Positions 32,479 through 46,665 of a stretch of 64,000 nucleotides of DNA are shown here, one piece after another. Both the position numbers and the translations under genes were made by a program. The stretch lies in assembly GCA_045837725.1 (NCBI GenBank), contig JBEWZL010000109.1:248001-312000 (forward strand), given 5' to 3'. How positions within the stretch are numbered: the first letter of the stretch is position 1; each line of letters opens with the position of its first letter. The notes below the pieces were generated by a model. It made no database searches. It saw only the letters and a list, made by a program, of their open reading frames with translations, and was not told where the DNA came from. Source of the DNA: Vermamoeba vermiformis. Its lineage: Eukaryota.

Positions 32479-33047
32479 ATGAGCACACCAAAAGCTAGAA
32501 GAGCTCAAAAGAGGGCCTTGCCGAAGTCACTAGCAATTGTATTGAAGGCACTTGAAGGCCAAGAAATTACATTGGAGCTGCGCAATGAGATCGACATCCG
32601 CGGCACTGTTGACTTTGTTGACGACCTAATGAAGTAAAGAGATTGTATTAGTAATTTAAATGTACTAAAATAATATTTTGACAGCACGACAATGACTAAT
32701 GTGTCGTACAAAAGTCATTTGGTAAGTGTAAAAAATCAGATCTAATTTTTAAAATTATCTAATTACCCAAATTAATAGACTGGCACTGAGGAAAAATTCG
32801 AGCAGTTATATGTCAGTGGAAAAAATATTCGATATGTCAATATTCCCGATCACATCAATATTATCAAAACGGTCGAAGAATACGTAAGTGGATGCAGGCT
32901 TGGTTCGCGCTATTTATGCTCAATCATTCGCTATTATTTCTAAACATAACCCTAATACAGCAACGTATGATAAATATGGCAAGAAACAAGTATAAGAGAG
33001 GAGTCAGGAAAGCACCAAAACAAAATCCAACCCACGAGAAGATTTAG
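32479..33047 (+). CDS. LSM10: Sm-like protein most similar to LSm10 (U7 snRNP-specific)
   Basis: KSLAIVLKALEGQEITLELRNEIDIRGTVDFVDDLM...FEQLYVSGKNIRYVNIPDHINIIKTVEE; 4 exons; basic N-terminal extension, no RG tail. Confidence 0.72.
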
Positions 33048-33325
33048 AGCAATTGATATGCATGGCCTAAAGAATATTGAAGGAAGATAATATAGTTGCG
33101 CGTATACTCTGCTAAAATAGGCTTACCGGTAGCTAAACCCTCGGATCCACAAGAACGATCCGAAACTGACGAATTAAGGCCTTTTGAGGCTGAATTAGCC
33201 GTATAATATTACAGTCAAGCCTATATCGATGCACGAATATAATGATGATTTAATAAATATCAAACTGTTGCCAAGGAATCATTTCACTTTTAATAACATG
33301 TTATTTGTAATATCAACGAGCAACC

Positions 33326-34340
33326 ATGAACAGATTTTGGGAATTTGGAAAAAAGATTGTAGCTATTGGCAGAAATTACGCTGAGCACGCGAAGGGTACG
33401 TATTGTATAGGCATAAGATTCTTCATGTAACCGTTGCGGATCTGTCAAAAATAATTTTCGGTTCAAAAATTACGTTTAATTCTAAAAATACGATTCCCTA
33501 TTGTCACAATATGAATACAATAATTATATGCCTGTTCTAATTATTATTGCAATATGTACGTAAAATTAACATTAATTCCAATCAACACAGAGCTTAACAA
33601 CCCTTTGCCCAAGAAGCCAATTCTTTTCTTAAAGCCAACTACTTCTTATATTCGTCCTGGTACGTAATTATGAACCATTAGTGAAAAGGGTGATCTTGCA
33701 GCGGATCTGATATTTTTGTCCGTGCAGGCCAATCCATTGAAATTCCCCCCGCAGTGCGCTCATTGCACCACGAAGTTGAGCTCGGAGTTATTATCGGCAA
33801 AAAGGCCGTGCAGATCAGCCCGCAAGACGCGATGGAACACGTGGCCGGATACACCCTCGCACTCGACATGACAGCACGTGACTTGCAAGACGAAGCCAAG
33901 TCAAAGGGCTTGCCGTGGACTGAAGCTAAGGGCCACGATACCTTCTGCCCGGTGTCGGACTTTATTGAAAAGAACAAGATCCCTGACCCGCACAACATTG
34001 AACTGTGGCTCAAAGTCGACGGTCAAGTCAAGCAAAAGGGCAACACCAAGGACATGATCTTCAAGTAAGTAATCCTTGCTGTATACTACAAAAAGTATTG
34101 GGATGAGATCTGGATCCCGTGTTAAGTGACCAGATCCGCGGTAGTACTAATCTCCGTTATAGATTACCCGAGATGATCAGCTATATCTCACACGTGATGA
34201 CCCTCGAGCCCGGTGATGTGATCTTGACTGGCACGCCCTCAGGTGTTGGTCCTGTCGCTGCTGGCAGTGAGATAACTTGCGGTATCACCGGCGTTATTGA
34301 CATGAAATTCCCCGTCATTGCTCGCAAGGCAAAGTTGTAA
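33326..34340 (+). CDS. FAHD1: Fumarylacetoacetate hydrolase domain protein (acylpyruvase/oxaloacetate decarboxylase)
   Basis: GKKIVAIGRNYAEHAKEL...PILFLKPTTSY...LHHEVELGVII...ALDMTARDLQ...GLPWTEAKGHDT...TLEPGDVILTGTPSGVG. Confidence 0.95.
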
Positions 34341-34462
34341 AACACACTCTCTTATATTCATAACTAAATACACTGCTATTTGTAATTAATTCCGATCCTA
34401 TTTACATTTTATAGTTACATCAAGTTTACAAGGTTATGTTACAATTTTGGTTGGATCTGCTT

Positions 34463-37163
34463 TTAATCAAACTGCGGTGTCGCGTCAGGCATTTGATTCA
34501 GCGATAAATAATTGACGCCGTATTGTTGCTCGAATAAGGTTGGATCCATCGGCGGCATTGGAGCAACAGCATTCGGCATGAAGTTGACTGATACCGTCAT
34601 TGGATTTCCTTGCGGCACTAAGGGCTGTTGGACCTTGGCTAATTCAGGACTAATATTGTTGTTGAAGACCATTGGAATGCTCGTTGAAACAGATCCGGTC
34701 AAGAATCCTGACACGGCGCACTCCATGACGAGCGCGTGGCTGACTTCAATCAAGGGAGATGACTGCGCGAATATTGACGGGAGCAATTTTTGAGGGAACT
34801 TGAGCTCGATTTGGCCCATTAACCTAATCAAGGAAAGAGTTAGATCTGGTCATAGAGATCTGGTCAAACGCTAGTAACTTACGTTCTACCAGCCCTAACA
34901 GGGAATCCCATGCCTTCCTTGCCGTTCAGAAGTGTGAGTGGGTGCGAAGCAGAAAATGTTCGAGGAAATCCGTTGGCTGAGATCTGTAGCGTCGAGTTCA
35001 ACGTGACTCTCATTGATTTAACGTCGTAATTACTCTTATTTTCAATGGTCTGAGTTGACAGTATTAATTAATAACCATCATATCGTCGTTAACAGTACGA
35101 GTAACTTACAAAGGACAATAATTTTTGACCGCCGACTTCAGCAATATTTCCTTCTTCTAGTTTGCCCTACAGTAACGTTAATATAACCCCTCGTATGAAT
35201 TAATGGTGTTGTACGTACCGACAAGTGAATCACTTGGTCTTTGGATCTGAAGTTGAGTTTCTTTTCTTTGACAGCAATAGCCGGACTAGGCACAGCCGAG
35301 GCATAATTCACAACGACTTTAATCTCGTTGCTGACGTGTTTGTTGAGTGCCATGCGTGGTCTGTTGACGTGTGCACTGCACGTGTAAGTCACTGCAGCGA
35401 ATGGATGTTCCATCGAAGGAGGCAAGTTCAACGGCATGACGAACGAGAAGGGCCAGTAGTACGAGCCTGAATCGATCTGAAATATAATTAGCCCGAGTCC
35501 TAGTATCATATAATAAGCACATACCACCGGTTGTTGAGCAAACAAGACCTGATCCACATTGAAAAGTACCACGTGTTCAGTTCTGCGGATCATGTGCCCA
35601 TCAGTCATTCTGTGGCCGTTGTGATCACGTTCATTAGGATTGCACAGCGACTCTTGTTTCCAACGCGTGTGTTCTGTGCCGAGGAACTTCAAAGTGATGT
35701 CTTTGACGCTCAATGGATTGCCAACATTGAAAATGACACCGCCTGTCACCGTCTAAAACACGAGTTAGAATACATTTCCTTTTATAGTAATAACTTCCAT
35801 ATGTCACGTACCTCTCCAGGATAAACAGTCGTGCGGTCCAAGACGAGTCGCAAGTCAGGCAGCTTCAAATTGATGTGTTGTTTGGGCTCTGAAGGCAGCA
35901 CTGATTCACTGAACTGAAACATCACATGAAGACGTGCTGATTTCTGGTGTTGTCACGAATGTTAGTTATTGTGAATAATGAGCAGTGCTATATTGATGTG
36001 CAAATATAAACACTCACAGAGATCTGAAGCCACAAGTCGTGCACTTGATTCGATGCAAATGGTCTGATGTCGAGTTCAAATCGACCCAGCAGTTGATTCG
36101 ATGCCAGTGTGCGATGATTCTGAATGTGAGTGCAATGGTCAGCGTCAACACGATGATGATGATGATGCAAATAAAAATCATCAATTAAAATAACACAATT
36201 TCAATCAATCGCACACTGGTCAACTCACCCACACTTTGAACTGAATGGGAAACTCTTTGTTTGGCAGACTCACACTGAACTCTTCGAACCACTGTCAATA
36301 ATCACAACGAGCATTAGTCATCCGTAATATATAAAATGAATGCATATTTGTCATCGCATTATTAATGATTGTGACTCACTTTGGCGTGTTTGTTGTTGTT
36401 GAAGACTTGCGTGGCGAGTGTTGGTGGATGATAACTGTGATTCAACGGCACTGATACGCGCATCTTCAGTTGAGGAGATAGCTCTATATAAGATATTAAT
36501 AATAAGGTCGTATGAAGCAGTCTCCGAGAATTTTCTTGAACGAACCTGCTTTTGGATTCTCTTCGAGTTCAAGTCCAACTGCTTCAATAATCTTAATCCA
36601 TAATATTCCTTGGCTGTGTCCTTGATTAACATCACCATATACCTAAAGTAGCTATAAATAACCGGCACTAATGGATCATGAAAATGCTTACGTGTTTCTT
36701 GATCCGGAAAAAGTGTTGTAATTGAAAACAGTCGCATATATCAGGATGAGAAACCATCTCTTTAAGGATGGTGTCGAACGCTGTTTGTCGTTCTTGGATA
36801 ACGAGACCTTCCGACTTGAACGGATTCACTTTAGATGGAAAAGGCGATAACTTGTGCTTGGGAAATTGCTTTACTATCTATTATCGCGTCAGAAAATATA
36901 TCTAGTCGTATATTATATATCTTACGTGATCGTATAGCGATTGCAATTCAGTGTAACGAAAACCCATTTCCCATCTGTGTCCTGTGCTGGTGGACAGTTC
37001 GAAAATATACTTCTGTACATTAATTTTAGTACAATACTTATTCTATTATTAATCACGCATCGCTTACTCGATATGGCTTTTGATTTTGCTTGAAAGAATT
37101 CTCAGATCGGACGCAGCGGATCTGCACATTTAAGTGCGGTGGCGCTTGAATTGCGTCGTTCAT
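34463..37163 (-). CDS. PX-C2-arrestin domain protein, copy A
   Basis: PX: YIFELS...RYTELQSLY...FPSKVNPF...IQERQTAF; C2: GILWIKVIEA...WFEEFSV...FKVWNHRTLASNQLLGRFEL; arrestin-N: LDRTTVYPGE..TGGV...ITLKFLGTEHTRW...YYWPFSFVMPLNLPPS; arrestin-C: IENKSNYDV...LLPS. Confidence 0.85.
35831..36480. repeat. Left arm of ~650 bp near-identical inverted repeat (partner 42390-43036)
   Basis: Reverse complement matches 42390-43036. Three exons appear identical by eye, and the introns differ only by scattered substitutions/indels. Confidence 0.95.
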
Positions 37164-37436
37164 TCGCCTAGCGTTGTATTACTTGAAACAAAAACTAAAA
37201 ATATCTGTCAGTTTCGTTTTTATTCTGTTGCGTAAGAAATACGCAAAAAATTGGATCGGACAAGTCGATCGATTTTTCGGCGCTCGAAAAGAACAATGGC
37301 TGGCAAGAACTTACAACATTCGCACGAACTTTCGAGTACATGGACGCGTCCTAGGAATTAAATAGGCGCCAAGCGAGTTTGAAAGGGAGTAACAGCAGAT
37401 CTCCGTTTGTAAATTGGATGTGGTCGTTTTGAAGGT

Positions 37437-38898
37437 CTATTTGGTATCAGTAGCTTTCTTACGCGCCAAGAAATAAGAAGTGGGTCTTCCATCATCCAGA
37501 TGGATCACTTTGTCCTCGAGAATTTCGAATTGATTTTCTTGCTCGAAGATCGCCTTCAACTCGCCAGGAGCCAATAAGAACTTCTTCGTTCTCGGCTTCA
37601 AACAACCCTCCATAAATGTATGATAGACTATGAAGCCTCCTGGACGAATCAAATTCCTGCAAAGGCTCGATAAGTCAATTTCTTTTTCGAAAATTGAAAA
37701 TTAGAAAAAAGAGTAGGGGCCTTATTTTAAACTCGCAATATCGATGCAATGAGCTTACTTGATGAAATCCATCAAATCTCTGTTCAAATATCGCGCTACG
37801 TTGACTACATCCGCTCTTTCTTTGAACACTTCTAAAATTGGCTTCCAATCCTCTTCGAAATCAACACACCGGAAATCTATATTCGTATCATATCATTAAG
37901 CCGATTAATATTAATTGTCTAAGTAGTCGCGAAATTTAACGTACCTATCGTAACTCCAGCCCTTCTCGCCAAATCCACTGCGCGTACTTTTAATTTTTCG
38001 AGGTAATCGAAGCCGATTGCTGTCCAACCTCGTGCCGCTAAGAATACCATATCTCTTGCTGTCGATACAGATGTTAATTAGACCAAACAGCAGGAATGTT
38101 TTTCTGCGTACCAGATCCACAAGCTAGATCAATCACTGTTCCGCTTGATTTCAATCCATCTTTAATTCTTAGCGCTTCTATTTGATTTATTACGCCCTCA
38201 ATGCATGGTGTTGGCCTCCATAGCCTAATTATAGAAAGAAAAGGATAAATTAATTTTGGTTCGTACTGGATCGGCTTCTAGCGCATTAAATGCTGTAAAT
38301 ATGCTTCCTATTGTACGTACACTTTAGAAATGTGAGAATTTTCCAAGAACAAATCGAGTGCTTTGACTTGCGTCCAAAACTCTTCAGTGCTAACAAAAGT
38401 GTCTTTGATGAAATACTTGTGCTCGCTGCAATATGCTGCGGCCTAATACCGACTATATAAGTAGCTAATTATATAATATTATTAAGCTGCTTACTTCTTT
38501 CAACTCCTCTTCCGAACCGACAAAATACAAATATGACAGCTGCCACAAGTTAAATCATGTTTTATTCCAGGAGTTGGTCAAATAGTAATACTTACTTTGG
38601 GTGGTAATTCGTGTGCTAAATTATAATTGAATTAATAAGCGGTGAATAAGTAAGTAATGGCTGGTAAAACACGATCCACATCCAGCACGGTCCAAATAAT
38701 AAATAGTAATTTTTAGTAATATATTTTATTTTAAAATATTACTAAAATTTACTAACCTAGTGGTGGTATCTCCTTCGATGGAATATGCGTGCTTCCAGCC
38801 ACGTGGAATTTTTCAAACAGTTCAGTCGATCGCAGGTCAACAAGACCCAAGCCTGAAGCTTTCCATTCGAGCAGTTTCTCCTTGATATTACTCTCCAT
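37437..38898 (-). CDS. Rhodanese-like domain + class I SAM methyltransferase (TehB-like) fusion
   Basis: LVDLRSTELFEKFHVAGSTHIP...AHELPPK (rhodanese); LWRPTP; VIDLACGSARDMVFLAARGW; ADVVNVARYLNRDL...IRPGGFIVYHTF...LLAPGEL. Confidence 0.85.
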
Positions 38899-39217
38899 CG
38901 TATCCTTGCAACAGATTATTACAACTAATAGCCTGTTCGTGCTCTGTGTCAAAAATAAAATCAACTGATCGGTTTCATAATTCACTTTTTTTATTTGCGA
39001 ATGAACACAAGCTGCTAAACTTGTAATTAAGCGCTAGGTACGTACAAATATATTATGAGCTGCGTATGTCTGGCATAACTGCAGCGAACAAAGACTAGAT
39101 CGTCAAAATTGAGAAAAAATTAAAAATTCAAAACGGTACCTTCTTTATGTTTCATAATTTGTTACTTAATATTTATAATTAATAAGAAAATAATTAATTA
39201 TAATTTTGCAGATTAAA

Positions 39218-41487
39218 ATGAAGCGTTACTTGGCATATTTCGGATCCAACCACTATGATTTTCGGTTGCCCGAGCTCGAAGCAGTCGCTAAATTATTTAA
39301 TATTAATCTACAATATGACAAGACTGTCAATGTATTCGATGTAAGTCCCTAGCTATTATTTGTAATTTTATTTCAATTTTTTTAATACATTGGTTAGACT
39401 CCGTTCGTCGAGGTATTTGTCGATTCAGAAGAAGACCTTGTTAAAATCGCTAGCAGAGCTGTTACAGTAAAGTACGAACATATTCAACCAATTGTATAGT
39501 CATGTAACTAATCCAATTATTTAGAGCATTTTACGAGATCTTTGGTGCCGGCAAAAATTACAATGAAGTGATCAATGGTGTTAAGAAATATATTGCTGAA
39601 CTACCTGTAAGTAATTTATTATAAACTTACACGAGCCGGATCCATTTCGAAAATAGACCGAAATAATTATAATTGACATTTTCCTAATTAGGATGACTAC
39701 GCCAAATATTCTCATGCCGATCGATCGTTCAAATTCCTCGTAGAAGGACACAACAAGAAATTTACGCACGAACAAAAAATGGAGAAAATTGCAGCGTTTA
39801 AATTCATGGACCTGAAGTCGACTGTCAACTTGGAAAATCCCACGGATATTTTTGCAATCTTTGAAGACTATCGCCGCACAGACAAGAACACTCCTGTGCG
39901 CGTATTCATGTGCCGACAAGTAGTGCTCGGTCGACGCGATTTGATCGATGTGTTCAGCTTGAAAAAACGACAGTACTTGGGCATCACTTCGATGGACAGT
40001 GAGCTCTCGTTGATTGGTGCAAATATGGCCCTGGTACGTGCCTTGCAAAATGTCGCGTCGTACTTTCTTTCAAGAATTAACTCTCACATTTATCATTAGG
40101 CGCGTGAAGGTACAATGGTGATCGATCCATTTGTGGGCACGGGCAGTCTCGTGATCACGTGCGCACACTTTGGCTCGATGACCATGGGCGGTGACATTGA
40201 CGCTTCAGCATTGACGGGCAAAGAAGAGGGCAAGAATGTGTTCACGAACTTTGGTCAGTACAATGTGCGCGACAGACTCGTGGACGTGATGCGCTTCGAT
40301 CACCACAAGAACGACGTCATTCGCAGCAACGAGTGGTTCGACGCCATTGTTTGCGATCGTAAGTACAGCTCAAATAATAGCCGACCTGTCAGCTCGTGGC
40401 TTATTATTGGATTTAGCGCCCTATGGTATTCGTGCTGGTGCAAAGAAAGTTGGCATCAAAAAGAAGACGTTGAATTGGATCCCGAAGAGCGACCAATCAT
40501 CACAGAGCTCTGACAACAACGAACAAAGACATACTTTGCAACAGTTAGTTGACATGGACAACAATTCTGAGAATAAGGACGAGAGCAATAACACTAATAC
40601 TAATGTCGAGAATAAGGACAATGAGACTAAGCACGATGAAAAAGCATCAGAGAACCAAGCTCAAGATGACGATGACGACAGTGCCAGTGAAGACAATGAG
40701 AACGAGAAAAATGACAAGACAGAGGGTCACGAAGACACGAGTGAGGGAGGCAAGGAAGGTGTCAAAGAAGGTACCAATGAGAGTGCTGAGAGTGTGCCCG
40801 ATGAGCACAAGAACAATCCGTACTACAACAACAAGAACAGACACGAGATTTTAGAGCAACGACGCAAAGCCAAGAATCAACGAATGCGCGAAAAGATGAA
40901 AGAAAAGAAGCAAAAGAAGTACTATGAGAACAAAGCTTTGAAAGAGAAAGGTGAACACGTGCCACAGTGCGTGCCGTACAGCGTGGTTGAACTCTTGTCT
41001 GATCTCTTAGGATTTGCCGCACGAACCCTGACAGTGTATGTACTTCGTGAGACTGTCGGGTATGATACTAATATATGTACTATAGTGGTGGCAGATTAGT
41101 CTATTGGTTGCCAACAACGAACGAGTAAGCGGATCCACTCGAAAAATTAAAACCTAAATTTTGGTACTAATACGTTTATCTTCTTATAGATACAAAGATA
41201 GTGATTTGCCTCAACACCCTTGCTTCAAAATAGCCGCTAATAGTGAACAGCCTTTATCGTCCAAGTGGCGCCGAAGATTGATTACGATGGAAAAAGTTAT
41301 TCCCTACGATGAAGCCCTGCACGGAAATCTACCGCCTATTAAGTACTCGCTCGAAGAGGAACCCGCGCATGCAAATATTGCCATGAAGGTATTAAAAGAT
41401 GTTAATAGACACGATAAGCGAAATGAACTCGATCACGTAAAACCGAAGTACGAAGAACTGTTTGGAAACGAAACTAAAATAAAATAA
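39218..41487 (+). CDS. TRM11: tRNA (guanine-10 N2)-methyltransferase Trm11 with large acidic low-complexity insert
   Basis: YDFRLPEL, FSLKKRQYLGITSMDSELSLIGANMA, VIDPFVGTGSL, GGDID, FDAIVCDPPYGIRAG, GGRLVYWLP, SEQPLSSKWRRRLITMEK. Confidence 0.93.
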
Positions 41488-41664
41488 GACCAATCCGCTT
41501 ATTAAAAACAATCATGTGTACCTTGCGATATTATTCTAACGACATTCTCGACACGTAGATTACTCAACTTTTCGTGGTTTCGATTTTGCGGATCCAAAAA
41601 AGACACGTGATTTCACATTTTAATTGCTCAAAAATGAATACCTATCTTATATTGCATTTCAACC

Positions 41665-44510
41665 ATGGAACAACAAGTAGTAACCCCGACACAATTAACG
41701 ATAACGGTTAAATGCTTGCGATCTGAACTCGCGTTCGTCGAGAAACAAAAGCCATTCAAAGTAAGAAAGCTAGGCCGCTTAGCGATATTTTTCTAATATT
41801 TTGAAATAATTTTAGAGCTATATTTTCGAGTTAAGTTCGTCAGCAGGTCATAGATGGCAAGTGGCAGGTCGTTACAGCGAACTCTTCGCTTTGTATCAAT
41901 ATGTATGTCATATATTACGTGCCTTATATTTAATTAACATGGGATCCTGCAGATTACTAAGCAATATCCCAAGCACAAGCTGTCACCATTTCCACCCAAA
42001 GTAAATCCATTCAAATCAGAAGCCACCATTATTCAAGAGCGTCAAACTGGTTTCGAAAAGATATTAAATGAGATGTTCTCGGATTCAGAAATACAGGAAA
42101 GCTTTCCCTTGCTGCACTTCTTCAAAGTCAAAGATCAAGTACGGCCAGATCAAATTTCTTTTTAACCGCGTTAACGTTCTGTCTATCAGCTCTTCGGAAA
42201 GTACAGTACACAAGGTCTTAATGAAGGAATATTATGGATCAAAGTTATCGAAGCTATCGGTCTAGAACTCGAAGAGAATCCAAAAGCAGGTTAGTCTAAA
42301 AAGAATTAACATTTAATCTACTTACATCGGCTATATTAATAATATAATCGTATCACTATAGACCTTATTGTTAATGTATTATATAGATCTATCTCCTCAA
42401 TTGAAGATGCGCGTATCAGTGCCGCTGAATCACAGTTATCATCCACCAACACTCGCCACTCAAGTCTTCAACAACAACAAACACGCCAAAGTGAGTCACA
42501 ATCATTAATAATGCGATGACAAATATGAATTCATTTTATATTATGAATGACTAATGCTCACTGTGTTTATTGACAGTGGTTCGAAGAGTTCAGTGTGAGT
42601 CTGCCAAACAAAGAGTTTCCCATTCAGTTCAAAGTGTGGGTGAGTTGATCACTGTGCGATGATTGAAACTGTGTTTTTTTAGTGATGATTTTTATTTGCA
42701 TCATCATCATCATCGTGTTGACACTGACCATTGCACTCACATTCAGAATCATCGCACACTGGCATCGAATCAACTGCTGGGTCGATTTGAACTCGACATC
42801 AGACCATTTGCATCGAATCAAGTGCACGACTTGTGGCTTCAGATCTCTGTGAGTGTTTATATTTTACACATCAAATATAGTACTGCTCATCATTCACAAT
42901 ACTAACATTCGTGACAACAACAGAAATCAGCACGTCTTCATGTGATGTTTCAGTTCAGTGAATCAGTGCTGCCTTCAGAGCCCAAACAACACATCAATTT
43001 GAAGCTGCCTGACTTGCGACTCGTCTTGGACCGCACTGTCTACGTCCCAGGCGAGGTAATATGACGTGTAGGTGCCTAGCGCTATCATGAACTAACGTCG
43101 TACTGTCAGACTGTCAACGGCAGTGTGTTGTACAATGTCGGCAATCCATTGAGTGTCAAAGACATTTCACTGCAGTTGTGCGGCACTGAACACGCAGAAT
43201 GGACCGAGTCACACACTGAGAGCAGTACTGATAGTGATGGTATGATATGCCTTGGTAACTCATTACAAGACGTTCTTTGACTTTTCGTTGACCAACAGGC
43301 CAGAGCCGCACCGAGACAGTGTACGATACTTATCGACAAACAATAACGCTGTTCAATGTGTCGCAGATCCTCTTTGCCGAGAAGCCAACAGTAAGCATGG
43401 TGAATTATCACCCCGTTGTGACTAATTGCGTGCATTGCAGATTGAGTCAGGCACCTATTATTGGCCGTTTTCGTTCGTCTTGCCAATGAATTTGCCTCCG
43501 TCCATGAGATACTACGACACATACATTGAATACAACGCGACAGTGACCGTGCACAGACCAGGACTGGCATCCAACAAACGCGTCAGCACTGCATTCGAAG
43601 TGGCTGTCAATTACGTGTCAATGTACAACTCGCCAGCTGTCACTTACAAGGAGAAAAAACTCAACTTTAGATCCAAAGATCAAGTCGTCGCCATCACCGT
43701 ACGTTAATTCCTGGTACTTTCTATTAGGCACTAACATATCTATGTCGTTTAGGGTGGATTGGACGGCAACACTAATGTCGTAACTATGGGATCCACACGC
43801 ATGTTCAATTTCGTACGTAGAATGCACATTTTTATGCCTATATAGTGCGAGTATAATCTAATTATACCGTATGCTAGACAATCGATAATCGCTCAGAATA
43901 TGACGTCAAAAAGATGTTCGTTACACTCTACGCATCTGGTCACAGGCATGCACAGGGACGTAGCGATTCGTTTGGGTGGAGCTTGAATCTGCTCAAAATT
44001 GATGAAAAATCGCAAATTAAGTTACCTAAAGGACGCAATATGTAAGTGATTGGTTAGTACCAGATCCAGCTCAAACTCATCTGACCCTCTTTAGCTTGCA
44101 GACTCAGGTCCCACTAACGTTCCCTATTAACACACTGCCGAGCTTATTTAAGGAATTCACTCCTCTTATTCATATTGATTATTACATCGAGATTGAGTGC
44201 ACAATGACCGGTAAGGTTGAGCAGTACAATTGAGCTGGATCTGACGTTATTTTCGTTGTAGGATTCTTAACTGGCTCTGTATCGACAGCAATCCCTATTA
44301 TATTCAATAAGATGCCTCCCCCAACGCTCATTCAAGTACCCGCTTTCGAACCTTCAGCGCCATATATTGAACCAGTTTTGTCTTACAAATTCCAGCCAAA
44401 TGGAGTCACGCCACTACCGCCAATGGATCCAGCGTTGTTTGAACAACAATACGGCGTTAATTATTCGTCCGTTAAATCAAACGCCTGGTTCTACTCCGCA
44501 AAATGACTGA
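41665..44510 (+). CDS. PX-C2-arrestin domain protein, copy B (apparent +1 frameshift near 44473 in the last exon)
   Basis: PX: SYIFELS...GRYSELFALY...FPPKVNPF...QERQTGF; same C2 as copy A; arrestin LDRTVYVPGE...YYWPFSFVLPMNLPPS...IDNRSEYDV; C-terminus PPMDPALFEQQYGVNY shared with copy A. Confidence 0.85.
42390..43036. repeat. Right arm of ~650 bp near-identical inverted repeat (partner 35831-36480)
   Basis: Direct comparison with the reverse complement of 35831-36480. Confidence 0.95.
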
Positions 44511-44629
44511 TGAGTACATCCAAAAAAATAAATATTATTTATTTGTACAAAATTAAACAAAAAACTCGCAGGTCGCAAAAGATTTACAAGATGGTCAATA
44601 GTAGCCTATTTTAGGGTTGTCGGCGTATA

Positions 44630-46665
44630 CTACAGATCCACCTCCATCTTAGCCGGTTCAGCAGGCTTGTCTGTGGCCGCTACTTCAGTCTCGGGCTTTA
44701 ATTGATTGGCCTCCATGTGCGTAGAAGAGATGAAATTTCCTAGCAGATCGATAGCACCAACTGCGTGAGCTGAACCGTTTGAATCCGCCTGAGCGATAGC
44801 GGATGTAGAAGCCGTTGGGGCAATTGGAGCTTCAGTGCCATTAGTGTTGTTAGGAGACGGTTTAATCTCATTTTTGATCTTCATTAAGGTCGAAGCAATC
44901 ACGTTTTCTTCAACTTTATCGAGGATCGTTCGATCTTTTTCTTGGGGCACTGGGATAGAACCATCTTCGGACTAAATACGGGCCATAATTGTTAGAATAC
45001 TATCACTACATTATATTCTTGCGGTACTTACGACTGAATCATCCTTTCTAACAATTCGAATGCTTCTTTCTGAAAGTCGACGAGTTCCATCTTTCTGATA
45101 CATGTGCTCGACTTTAGCCCACCGCCTTGCGCATTGAGTATCTATATAACACATATTAATAAGTTAATTAATACTTTGCGACGTAACGTTTCAATTTGTA
45201 ACGGATGCGTACCTGTTCTCTTAGGCATGTACTTGCTTACTTGACTCCAACAGGCACCATACTGTTGAAATAATGCCGCTAATTTATCGTCCTCCTCTAT
45301 TAAAGTAATTAAATTCGACGAATTAACGTAAACTCCGAAATCCGTTACCTTTCGTCCACGTTCCCTTATTTATTCCGGGTGCAGCGACGCGGTGGTAATG
45401 TTGTGCTATAAACATGATTAGTTTGAGTATAATACTATCATTTAAAGCAACTTACAGCACTGTGAAGGTGTTTTTTGGCCTCCAGTAGCCGCATTCAACG
45501 CCTTGGCGATCTGTTTCCACTTTTTGGGGCCGTGTTCGCTGCTCTTAATGATCTCTAACAGCTTATCTGATTCTTCCTATTCCAGTGTACAATTAGTACG
45601 TGGATTATAGCCCAGTACAAAAACAAATAAAAATAATTTGTTCGATCGGATGTAACAACTTACTGGTGCCCAAAAATTCGCTGGTTTTCGTTGTCTGTCT
45701 TGTTGTTTAGAATTTTTACCCTGTTCAAACATTATCCGATTAATATTTTAAGGATTTTCAACCGTCATCCGAAACGGATTGGTTAGGTGTCAAAAACGTC
45801 ACTTTCGAATTTCGAATTGCTACAGTGCTGGTAGTTATAAAAATTGTACCTTTGATGACGAGGGGCTGCCAGGCGGTGATTCAACTGCCTCGCCGCTATT
45901 CACTTTCTGTCTTTTGCGAGGTTTCTTGTCATTGTCGCTAGCCGGACGAGATCTTTTACCGGCGCTTTTGCCCGGAATAAATAAATCATCGTCGTCCTCT
46001 ATTCTTCCTGCCTCTTGAGCCTCGCTAGAATCATCTACTAAAATTAGCATCTGAATTGATTACAATTTCAATTCTTGTTTTTCGAGTAAGCGCTCAATGG
46101 AACCGTTTATGATGCATACCACCGGGTCGATAAAATAATTATAAGGAAGATTATTAAGGCGCCCGTGATAATCTTTAAAATTTCAGGTAAAATACTGAAA
46201 AGTTACAAACTGTACGGGATTTGTACAAAGTAATGTCGTTATAAAATTTCATTTACCTGAATCTTCGGTCTCCGTCTCACCCTCTTCATTATCCTTCTTC
46301 GAAGAACTTGATTTTGACCGTTTAGTTTCGGATGTCTTTTGTTCTTTGACTTCTGAATAAGGTTGGGACAACAACGAAGCTCCTTGTGGATTGCTTTCGA
46401 TAATTTTACGTATCTGTCAAATTAAAACCACCGTTAATTCTATTTTTCGCATTTTTCTGCTTTATTTTTTGCTTAATCCAATAAATACCTGCTGTTGGGC
46501 CTCTTGTGACGGCACTTTATCGTCCAGCCATTGCACCAGCTTGCTTATAATATCGTCCGTGGCATTGCCGTACATGCCCGACACGCCAGTGGCAGCTGGT
46601 GTCGAATTACTTGTGGCATTCGCGTCCATCCCATTCGAATCTGCTATTTTGACTTGCTCCGCCAT
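44630..46665 (-). CDS. Myb/SANT-domain protein with two Myb repeats
   Basis: FWAPEESDKLLEII...GPKKWKQIA...KTPSQCAQHYHRVAAPGINKGTWTKEEDDKL...YGACWSQVSKYMPKRTDTQCARRW. Start codon uncertain. Confidence 0.85.

What the first reader, a model, noticed from the sequence alone, without database searches (positions are those of the whole stretch)
34463..44510. Invertible cassette candidate: two PX-C2-arrestin paralogues joined by a homogenised inverted repeat over the C2 domain
Seen: copy A (minus, ATG 37163) and copy B (plus, ATG 41665) point away from each other. Their PX and arrestin exons and introns are clearly diverged, yet 35831-36480 and 42390-43036 are near-identical reverse complements, with three exons identical by eye and the introns conserved too. 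Inference: this is a recent, sharply bounded gene-conversion tract, implying ectopic recombination between the arms. Both promoters and PX domains lie inside the 5.9 kb spacer (with the rhodanese-MTase and TRM11). A crossover would flip the spacer and make intact chimeras PX(A)-C2-arrestin(B) and PX(B)-C2-arrestin(A), a shufflon-like swap of lipid-binding and cargo-binding modules. No recombinase is visible, so it would rely on homologous recombination.
Basis: partly seen in the sequence, partly recalled or inferred. Interest (0 to 1): 0.78.

Follow-up and report, generated by a model that had tools for sequence, protein, structure and literature searches.

The report
Gene conversion between inverted arrestin paralogues
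Two old, back-to-back copies of a membrane-trafficking gene keep their middle (C2) section almost identical by repeatedly copying it from one to the other, a well-known process, and nothing shows that the DNA between them flips.

Summary
Gene A (minus, 37163-34463, 13 exons) and gene B (plus, 41665-44506, 15 exons) are divergently transcribed PX-C2-arrestin paralogues. Arms 35831-36509 and 42361-43036 are 95.6% identical reverse complements (651 of 681 columns). They span four exons and three introns, and they are the only repeat of 60 nt or more in the window. Outside the arms, synonymous sites are saturated (pS 0.76-0.78). Inside them pS is 0.047 and introns are 94% identical, so this is ectopic gene conversion and not selection alone. 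The conversion is recurrent. In another lineage the B-type protein P0170 shares 7 of 7 informative C2 residues with that lineage's A-type, against 1 versus 80 in the arrestin region, and it switches at the same exon-8 boundary. AU tests support the discordance (p 0.004 and 1e-7). The inversion or "shufflon" reading is geometrically possible, since chimeras would be in frame, but it has no support. No chimera occurs among 5 full-length database A-type proteins or in the window, no recombinase was seen, and contigs cannot test orientation. The verdict is an ordinary, well-resolved case of domain-limited concerted evolution between inverted paralogues, in a rare and uncharacterised PX-C2-arrestin family.

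The parts
34463..37163 (-). Gene A, a PX-C2-arrestin paralogue with 13 exons (37163-37068, 37012-36926, 36877-36692, 36642-36546, 36483-36380, 36291-36229, 36119-36018, 35943-35812, 35752-35525, 35476-35219, 35166-35110, 35049-34883, 34823-34463).
   Evidence: Hand model, checked: 645 aa, no internal stop, all introns GT-AG, 48-109 nt. Per-exon Pfam gives PX, Arrestin_N and Arrestin_C. RNA joints confirm introns 5, 6 and 9. The protein is 94/96/88% identical to P0001 over PX, C2 and arrestin.
41665..44506 (+). Gene B, a PX-C2-arrestin paralogue with 15 exons (41665-41760, 41816-41902, 41953-42138, 42190-42289, 42387-42490, 42577-42639, 42747-42848, 42924-43055, 43110-43239, 43299-43390, 43441-43698, 43753-43812, 43878-44041, 44095-44210, 44262-44506). 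The conserved-frame stop would be at 44510.
   Evidence: Model, checked: 644 aa, all introns GT-AG. Per-exon Pfam gives PX and Arrestin_N. RNA joints confirm introns 5 and 6. Its arrestin region forms a clade with the B-type P0170 at 99/99 support.
35831..36509 (-). Arm A of the converted tract (679 nt): the last 26 nt of intron 4, exons 5-7 with introns 5-7, and the first 113 nt of exon 8. It encodes aa 155-283, which is C2 without its first strand plus the C2-arrestin linker.
   Evidence: Domain borders come from P0001 (C2 135-243, Arrestin_N from 284).
42361..43036 (+). Arm B of the converted tract (676 nt), with the same content as arm A.
   Evidence: Contig record 7 of run X1 (42109-42454, 0 differences) crosses its inner edge.
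36510..42360 (.). Spacer of 5851 nt between the arms. It holds both 5' regions, exons 1-4 of A and of B (PX plus the first C2 strand), and two further genes.
   Evidence: Coordinates, gene content.
37437..39033 (-). Spacer gene on the minus strand (approximate limits). Its N-terminal ORF is rhodanese-like.
   Evidence: ORFs. Pfam gives Rhodanese at E 0.0028, below the cut-off, on 38752-39033, and 0 families on three other ORFs. The PDB search found nothing.
39194..41200 (+). Spacer gene on the plus strand (approximate limits), a methyltransferase-like gene. The name 'TRM11' is plausible but not confirmed.
   Evidence: Pfam gives UPF0020 at E 0.025, below the cut-off, on 40100-40513. A spliced joint at 40032|40099, and X19 reads that continue beyond 40356 into unmatched sequence, come. 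The PDB search found nothing.
36484..36545 (-). Intron 4 of A (62 nt; B's intron 4, 42290-42386, is 97 nt). A 35-nt length difference abuts the inner edge of the tract.
   Evidence: Alignment, intron lengths.
43037..43055 (+). End of exon 8 just outside the tract (A: 35830-35812). Here the two copies differ by a shifted codon block (TTVYPGE against TVYVPGE). The outer edge of the tract falls at the start of Arrestin_N, and it falls at the same residue in lineage sp2 (P0170).
   Evidence: (13 matches in 19 nt, with 6 gap columns).
44467..44471 (+). One extra base in the window relative to run X1. It shifts B's last 13 codons out of the conserved ending.
   Evidence: table 4: one base is left out at 44467 or 44471 in all X1 depth there (95 + 86.2 of 181.2). 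P0042 and the orthologues end in ...SLNQTPGSTPQND. The alternative frame 44472-44510 encodes exactly that ending.

Best explanation
A and B are old, divergently transcribed paralogues of a PX-C2-arrestin protein. One module of about 680 bp is kept nearly identical by recurrent, non-crossover ectopic gene conversion between the inverted copies, that is, by concerted evolution. The module covers exons 5-8 with introns 5-7 and encodes most of the C2 domain plus the C2-arrestin linker. The PX and arrestin modules on either side have diverged to saturation and evolve independently. Shown here: the tract is homogenised at silent and intron sites, its history differs from that of its flanks, and the same module with the same outer boundary is homogenised in a second lineage. 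Inferred: the mechanism is repair of breaks in one arm from the other arm (synthesis-dependent strand annealing or short-patch heteroduplex repair). Conversion stops where homology breaks, at a 35-nt indel in intron 4 and a shifted codon block in exon 8. Strong purifying selection on the C2 keeps the arms similar enough for conversion to persist. At its inner end the window's tract was extended by an A-to-B event after the split from the organism of run X7. Crossover products, which would be inversions, are rare or selected against.
For: (1) The tract is 95.6% identical including introns, with pS 0.047 inside against 0.775 and 0.76 outside. The synonymous rate in the tract (4/86) is not different from its intron rate (16/266; Fisher p 0.79), so identity is not explained by protein-level selection. 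(2) Region trees: winB lies outside the clade of winA, P0001 and P0002 for PX, and pairs with B-types for arrestin, but it is sister to winA inside the A clade for C2. (3) In lineage sp2 the B-type P0170 shares 7 of 7 informative tract residues with the A-type P0155 and 0 with winB, whereas in the arrestin region the count is 1 by lineage against 80 by paralogue. (4) AU tests: for the C2 core a winB+P0170 clade is rejected (dlnL 22.7, p 0.004). For arrestin, winA+winB is rejected (dlnL 247, p 1e-7) and winB+P0170 is a clade at 99/99. (5) Both arms are real in independent data. X1 has a contig crossing B's inner edge with 0 differences and a separate A-arm intron-6 contig. RNA joints exist on both arms. 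(6) One X7 contig covering B's exons 3-4 leaves the window at the exon 4/5 junction (42289) with letters that translate to a homologous but different exon-5 start. By my hand count of the 30 shown letters, about 63% match. X7's A-type transcript lies on the tract at 95% or more. (7) The literature describes the same pattern between closely linked inverted paralogues (passages read).
Against: It is not shown that P0170 and P0155 come from one genome. The only hints are identical rare residues and the equal contig length (41,270) recorded for one A-type and one B-type fragment. The AU groups were named after I had seen the alignment, and the C2 core has few variable sites. The free tree there is poorly resolved, and holding the three sp2 rows together gave p-AU 0.05. 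The X7 evidence for an unconverted B exon 5 rests on one low-depth contig and 30 displayed letters. Exons 6-8 show 0 of about 62 synonymous sites changed while introns 5-7 show 16 of 266 (Fisher p 0.049, post hoc), which one uniform event does not predict well. X1's four single-base differences inside the arms are not toward the partner arm, so there is no sign of ongoing patchy conversion between strains. Word depth in X1 (about 220-250 on the B arm's shared exons, 54 in the matching A-arm bin) fits two copies, but unique places also reach 301.7, so depth is weak evidence. No genomic locus from a relative could be fetched.
Confidence: 0.88

Rival explanations
1. Invertible cassette. Homologous crossovers between the arms flip the 5.85-kb spacer often enough to matter, producing PX(A)-C2-arrestin(B) and PX(B)-C2-arrestin(A) proteins as a module-swapping switch.
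For: The geometry is right. The arms are inverted, about 680 bp long and 95.6% identical. Both promoters and PX exons lie inside the spacer, exon phases are identical, and a simulated crossover gives in-frame products of 643 and 646 aa with 0 internal stops. Conversion itself shows that the arms pair.
Against: None of the 5 full-length database A-type proteins (P0001, P0002, P0155, P0158, P0159) nor the window is chimeric. In X7 a single transcript contig (depth 6.29) carries A's exon 2/3 junction and A's exons 8-11. Its 'opposite strands' joint 35943|42848 only reflects identical exons being laid on the other arm. PX and arrestin trees agree across lineages. No recombinase family appeared among the 7 spacer ORFs scanned. 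The Drosophila review notes that crossover resolution between inverted paralogues gives rearrangements that are mostly deleterious (passage). Orientation was not tested directly.
Confidence: 0.04
2. A single recent conversion or patch-copy event confined to this lineage, with no recurrence. The resemblance in the other lineage would reflect slow evolution of C2.
For: C2 is the slowest-evolving part of the protein: 80% identity to the C-type P0004 against 48% for PX and 51% for arrestin. Few sites vary in the core, and the free C2 tree is poorly resolved.
Against: Seven of seven informative sites group by lineage and none by paralogue. A B-type clade is rejected for C2 (p 0.004). The outer boundary is at the same residue in both lineages.
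Confidence: 0.07
3. Assembly artefact: one C2 segment was duplicated or collapsed by the assembler.
For: Repeats of this length can confuse assemblers. Run X1 differs from the window by several 1-nt indels (table 4), so the window's consensus may contain errors.
Against: The arms differ at 30 columns, and each is continuous with its own diverged gene in correct phase. X1 has a contig crossing B's inner boundary without a difference and an A-specific intron-6 contig. RNA joints lie on both arms. The database protein P0170 shows the same mosaic in another lineage.
Confidence: 0.01

Closest known systems
Concerted evolution of closely linked inverted paralogues, such as the Drosophila Hsp70 pairs (review PMC3924832, passages read)
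   Same: The paralogues are inverted and closely linked and are homogenised by ectopic gene conversion. Paralogues group by species. Crossover resolution is expected to be rare or deleterious.
   Different: Here only an internal module is homogenised while both ends of the genes are saturated with change. The genes are head-to-head, with two unrelated genes between them.
Mosaic conversion in the Capitella teleta Dlx pair (PMC3199776, abstract and passages read)
   Same: Conversion is limited to the most conserved domain and the adjoining intron of two inverted, closely linked duplicates whose other parts are diverged.
   Different: The Dlx genes are tail-to-tail and the tracts are short. Here the tract is about 680 bp over four exons and three introns, and there is evidence for the same module in a second lineage.
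Bacterial shufflons and invertible segments
   Same: Inverted repeats flank a segment whose inversion would exchange protein ends.
   Different: Those systems use a dedicated site-specific recombinase and short specific sites, and both orientations coexist. Here there are long homologous gene segments, no recombinase was seen and no second orientation was observed.
Dictyostelium arrestin-domain proteins AdcB/AdcC (C2 + arrestin + SAM) and AdcA/AdcD (FYVE + arrestin) (PMC3001460, passages read)
   Same: An arrestin core is extended by N-terminal lipid-binding modules.
   Different: Here the modules are PX plus C2 together, with no SAM domain found. Sequence relatedness to the Adc proteins was not tested.
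Fungal arrestin-related trafficking adaptors (ARTs; their defining features are recalled)
   Same: Arrestin_N and Arrestin_C domains are present, with a weak LDB19-type match.
   Different: There is no [LP]PxY motif in 6 of 6 close members, and PX and C2 are extra.

Membership tests
Ectopic gene-conversion tract / concerted evolution | A bounded stretch of excess identity between paralogues that includes silent sites and introns, flanked by diverged sequence | tested here: met
   Identity is 95.6% over 681 columns against 0.14-0.80 per 50-nt window outside. pS is 0.047 inside against 0.76-0.78 outside.
Ectopic gene-conversion tract / concerted evolution | Gene-tree discordance: paralogues group by lineage inside the tract and by paralogue outside | tested here: met
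   Sites by lineage against by paralogue are 7:0 in the tract and 1:80 in arrestin. AU p values are 0.004 and 1e-7. Caveat: it is not proven that P0170 and P0155 come from the same genome.
Ectopic gene-conversion tract / concerted evolution | Both copies exist in independent sequence data | tested here: met
   Arm-specific X1 contigs and RNA joints on both arms.
Invertible DNA switch (shufflon-like) | Both orientations of the segment coexist | not testable with these tools
   No listed piece in the lay spans the stretch, and nothing links an arm's outer flank to its inner flank. No long-read lay was available.
Invertible DNA switch (shufflon-like) | A dedicated recombinase encoded nearby | tested here: not met
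   Seven spacer ORFs and 3 flanking ORFs scanned against Pfam gave no recombinase family. The rest of the window was not scanned.
Invertible DNA switch (shufflon-like) | Alternative protein ends actually produced (chimeric products) | tested here: not met
   No chimera among 5 full-length database A-type proteins or in the window. The X7 transcript contig is A-A.
Arrestin-fold protein (Arrestin_N + Arrestin_C) | Both arrestin domains above Pfam threshold | tested here: met
   On the orthologue P0001, Arrestin_N scores 65.1 bits and Arrestin_C 42.2 bits. On window exons, Arrestin_N scores 41.7 and 42.8 bits.
PX-C2-arrestin architecture | PX, C2, Arrestin_N and Arrestin_C in this order on one chain | tested here: met
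   P0001 has PX 41-119, C2 135-243, Arrestin_N 284-420 and Arrestin_C 466-576, and P0161 likewise. The window's spliced proteins could not be submitted. Their single exons give PX and arrestin, and C2 only at E 0.15.
Fungal ART / alpha-arrestin ubiquitin-ligase adaptor | PY motifs ([LP]PxY) that recruit a Nedd4/Rsp5-type ligase (feature recalled) | tested here: not met
   Zero motifs in winA, winB, P0001, P0155, P0170 and P0161. The distant P0008 has 5 and P0010 has 1.

The most novel reading that the evidence does not exclude
The homogenised C2-linker module may be more than a by-product of repair. It could be maintained as a shared recombination module. In that reading, concerted evolution keeps one identical membrane-sensing core in both adaptors, and rare homologous crossovers within it invert the 5.85-kb spacer. 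That would put PX(A)/arrestin(B) and PX(B)/arrestin(A) chimeras into populations as standing variation in lipid-targeting and cargo-binding combinations. The evidence excludes frequent or fixed inversion in the lineages sampled. It does not exclude a low-frequency polymorphism.
Probability: 0.05. Interest if true: 0.65.

Novelty: new member of a known kind. Interest (0 to 1): 0.3.

Why it matters
This is a clean, well-bounded example of domain-limited concerted evolution in a eukaryote with short introns. One module of a three-module protein is kept identical between paralogues across at least two lineages, while the neighbouring modules are saturated with change. The outer boundary sits exactly at a domain junction. 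That makes the locus useful for studying how conversion boundaries are set, whether by a homology break or by selection. It also warns annotators that C2-based trees of this family will mislead. The PX-C2-arrestin family itself is rare: 8 of 1.84 billion representatives reach E <= 1e-30. I found no description of it. The search returned one paper holding all four terms, seen only as a search listing and by its title unrelated. The search returned none. The family lacks PY motifs, so how it connects to ubiquitin ligases, if it does, is open. None of this changes a major open question.

Tried and rejected
(1) My first model of intron 6 in B (42636-42682) was rejected. Gene A has no AG at that acceptor, whereas the GTGAGT...CTGAC...CAG intron (B 42640-42746, A 36228-36120) is shared. 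RNA joints and the database models reading ...FKVW|NHRT... confirm it. The His-run ORF there is intronic. (3) Searches for full-length B-type orthologues: one search gave 1 protein among 5 candidates, one search gave 2 among 3458, and one search gave no full-length B-type. Only cluster members yielded P0170, which lacks PX and the start of C2. (4) Genomic loci of relatives: both metagenome scans found nothing (406 pattern matches, 0 confirmed; 0 matches). No whole genome is held. (5) RNA holders: no RNA holder is listed for the stretch itself. The RNA raw-read runs X19 and X21 carry the same species label but lie at 95-99% identity (99 of 101 and 135 of 140 laid reads), so they speak for a close relative, not this strain. 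(6) I asked whether X1's differences in the arms point to the partner arm, which would indicate patchy ongoing conversion. None of the 4 does. (7) GC-biased conversion: tract GC is 0.40-0.41 against 0.42-0.43 for the rest of the genes, and GC3 is not raised relative to the arrestin region. (8) A third copy in the window: none found by tblastn. (9) PDB sequence searches with two spacer ORFs gave 0 hits. (10) Earlier notes of this scan: nothing by place, sequence or words. (11) X1 word depth as a copy-number measure is too noisy to rely on, since a unique place reaches 301.7.

Full report
OBSERVATION. The inverted repeat is real. The repeat finder on 33000-46000 gave 8 inverted pairs and no direct repeat. 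Four of the pairs, at 94-99% complementarity, tile 35831-36509 and 42361-43036. In the whole window these are the only repeats of 60 nt or more: all 7 inverted pairs belong to the two genes, and there are 0 direct-repeat families. A global alignment of gene A (reverse-complemented) with gene B gives 0.84-1.00 identity per 50 nt through the tract. Identity falls sharply to 0.14-0.80 on both sides.

GENE MODELS. I built exon models by hand and checked them in scripts. A runs on the minus strand from ATG 37163 to a stop ending at 34463, with 13 exons and 645 aa. B runs on the plus strand from ATG 41665 to a stop ending at 44506, with 15 exons and 644 aa. All introns are GT-AG and 48-109 nt long. 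My first choice for intron 6 was wrong, because A has no AG at that acceptor. The intron shared by both copies (A 36228-36120, B 42640-42746) is confirmed by RNA joints 36119|36229 and 42638|42746 and by database proteins that read across the junction. B has two introns that A lacks (B introns 9 and 14).

Domain identity therefore rests on two sources. Single exons gave PX at 29.7 and 31.5 bits, Arrestin_N at 41.7 and 42.8 bits, Arrestin_C at E 0.003 and C2 only at E 0.15. The orthologue P0001 has PX 41-119, C2 135-243, Arrestin_N 284-420 and Arrestin_C 466-576.

ANATOMY OF THE TRACT. The tract comprises the last 26 nt of intron 4, exon 5, intron 5, exon 6, intron 6, exon 7, intron 7 and the first 113 nt of exon 8. 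That is residues 155-283, or C2 without its first strand plus the whole linker up to the first residues of Arrestin_N. Differences:
- 23 mismatches and 7 gap columns in 681 columns.
- Exon 5: 4 of 104, of which three are synonymous and one is D/E.
- Exons 6, 7 and 8 (converted part): 0 of 278.
- Introns 5-7: 16 mismatches and 7 gap columns.
- Intron 4 end: 3 of 26.

The inner edge abuts a 35-nt length difference in intron 4 (62 nt in A, 97 nt in B). The outer edge abuts a shifted codon block in exon 8. The spacer is 5851 nt and holds both 5' regions, exons 1-4 of both genes and two further genes.

CONVERSION, NOT SELECTION OR ARTEFACT. Proportions of synonymous differences are 0.775 for residues 1-154, 0.047 for the tract and 0.76 for the arrestin region. 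The tract's synonymous rate (4/86) does not differ from its intron rate (16/266; Fisher p 0.79). Identity therefore extends to neutral sites.

The arms differ at 30 columns, and each continues in phase into its own diverged gene. In the independent DNA run X1, one contig crosses B's inner edge without a difference (42109-42454), and another carries A's intron 6. RNA joints lie on both arms. Word depth in X1 is about 220-250 on the shared exons laid on the B arm and 54 in the matching A-arm bin. That fits two copies, but a unique place also reaches 301.7, so I give depth little weight.

RECURRENCE AND DISCORDANCE. Database searches found A-type orthologues P0001 (lineage 'sp1') and P0002/P0155/P0158/P0159 (lineage 'sp2'). 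They also found a more distant 'C-type' (P0004/P0161) and B-type fragments, of which P0170 (477 aa, sp2) includes most of the C2.

Region by region, winA against winB is 54% (PX), 99% (tract) and 45% (arrestin). winA against P0001 is 94%, 96% and 88%. In the tract core (residues 167-283), 7 sites have the pattern window A = window B, differing from sp2 A = sp2 B, and 0 sites group by paralogue. In the arrestin region the counts are 1 and 80.

AU tests were run with winA left out, because it is identical to winB in the core. For C2 they reject a winB+P0170 clade (dlnL 22.7, p 0.004). For arrestin, winB+P0170 is a clade at 99/99, and winA+winB is rejected (dlnL 247, p 1e-7). P0170 switches from A-like to B-specific sequence at the same residue of exon 8 as winB does. 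Caveats:
- It is not proven that P0170 and P0155 share a genome. The hints are the shared rare residues and the equal contig length of 41,270 recorded for one A-type and one B-type fragment.
- The groups were named after I had seen the alignment.
- The free C2 tree is poorly resolved, and holding the three sp2 rows together gave p-AU 0.05.

INNER BOUNDARY AND DIRECTION. In run X7 (another organism label, laid contigs at 95% identity or more), a contig covering B's exons 3-4 leaves the window at 42289. Its unmatched letters translate to a homologous but different exon-5 start. By my hand count about 63% of the 30 displayed letters match the window. X7's A-type transcript lies on the tract. All A-types share the window's exon-5 start, and the C-type resembles X7's B-type there. 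I infer that the inner part of the tract was written A-to-B in the window's lineage after that split. This rests on one low-depth contig.

INVERSION. I found no sign that it happens.
- All 5 full-length database A-type proteins and the window pair PX(A) with arrestin(A).
- X7's 1431-nt transcript contig carries A's exon 2/3 junction and A's exons 8-11. Its 'opposite strands' joint 35943|42848 is simply identical exons laid on the other arm.
- PX and arrestin trees agree.
- No recombinase family appeared in the 7 spacer and 3 flanking ORFs scanned.

Orientation could not be tested directly. No listed piece in the lay spans the stretch, nothing links an arm's outer flank to its inner flank, and no long-read lay was possible. 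A low-frequency polymorphism therefore remains open.

COMPARISON WITH WHAT IS KNOWN. Conversion between closely linked inverted paralogues, including mosaic conversion limited to the most conserved domain plus the adjoining intron, is documented. The examples are Drosophila Hsp70 and others (review PMC3924832, passages) and Capitella Dlx (PMC3199776, abstract and passages). The review states that crossover resolution in this orientation yields rearrangements that are mostly deleterious. Arrestin cores extended by lipid-binding modules are known in Dictyostelium, with C2 in AdcB/C and FYVE in AdcA/D (PMC3001460, passages). I found no description of a PX-C2-arrestin protein. The search returned 1 paper, seen only as a search listing and by its title unrelated. 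The search returned 0 papers. The family is rare, with 352 hits at E <= 1e-3 and 8 at E <= 1e-30 among 1.84 billion representatives. Its close members have no PY motif (0 of 6).

UNEXPLAINED. Exons 6-8 have 0 of about 62 synonymous sites changed, while the introns between them have 16 of 266 (Fisher p 0.049, post hoc). This may be chance, faster change in the AT-rich introns, or several short events.

VERDICT. The conversion reading is supported and extended to recurrent, module-limited concerted evolution. The invertible-cassette reading is unsupported. This is a new member of a known kind, of moderate-to-low interest.

Noticed in passing
window 44467-44510: Gene B's last 13 codons are out of the conserved frame. 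The window has one base more than run X1 at 44467/44471. Without that base, B would end ...SLNQTPGSTPQND with a stop at 44510, as in P0042 and the orthologues. This is either an assembly error or a strain-specific frameshift.
   Followed up: partly
window 43240-43298 and 44211-44261 (B), against A 35752-35525 and 34823-34463: B has two introns (its introns 9 and 14) at places where A reads through in one exon. The paralogues therefore differ by intron gain or loss outside the tract.
   Followed up: partly
window 36120-36228 and 42640-42746: Intron 6 contains a CAT-repeat run that reads as an open His-rich frame (...DDFYLHHHHHRVD...) and could mislead gene callers. RNA joints show that it is spliced out.
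   Followed up: yes
proteins P0004, P0161, P0162 (not in the window): These are a third, 'C-type' PX-C2-arrestin. Against A it is 48% identical in PX, 80% in C2 and 51% in arrestin. A fragment of it and a B-type fragment are both recorded on a contig of 667,140 nt, so it may be a linked third paralogue in relatives. tblastn found no third copy in this window.
   Followed up: partly
genes A and B and close relatives: There is no [LP]PxY motif in 6 of 6 close family members. A conserved C-terminal motif (...PPMDP.LFEQQYGVN...) is shared by the A, B and C types.
   Followed up: partly
window 33694-34340 (+): The left neighbour of gene A is a fumarylacetoacetate-hydrolase-family gene (FAA_hydrolase, E 2e-38 and 7.5e-13 on two exons).
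   Followed up: partly
window 33800-45200, runs X19/X21 and X1: RNA runs carrying the same species label as the best DNA holder lie at only 95-99% identity to the window. X1 itself differs at many single bases and 1-nt indels. The label therefore seems to cover several diverged strains or species.
   Followed up: no
window 36265 (run X21): At one of the seven exon-6/7 sites where the RNA strain differs from the window, X21 reads are mixed (6 of 9 carry the other letter). At the other six sites all reads agree. This could be a difference between that strain's own A and B copies.
   Followed up: no
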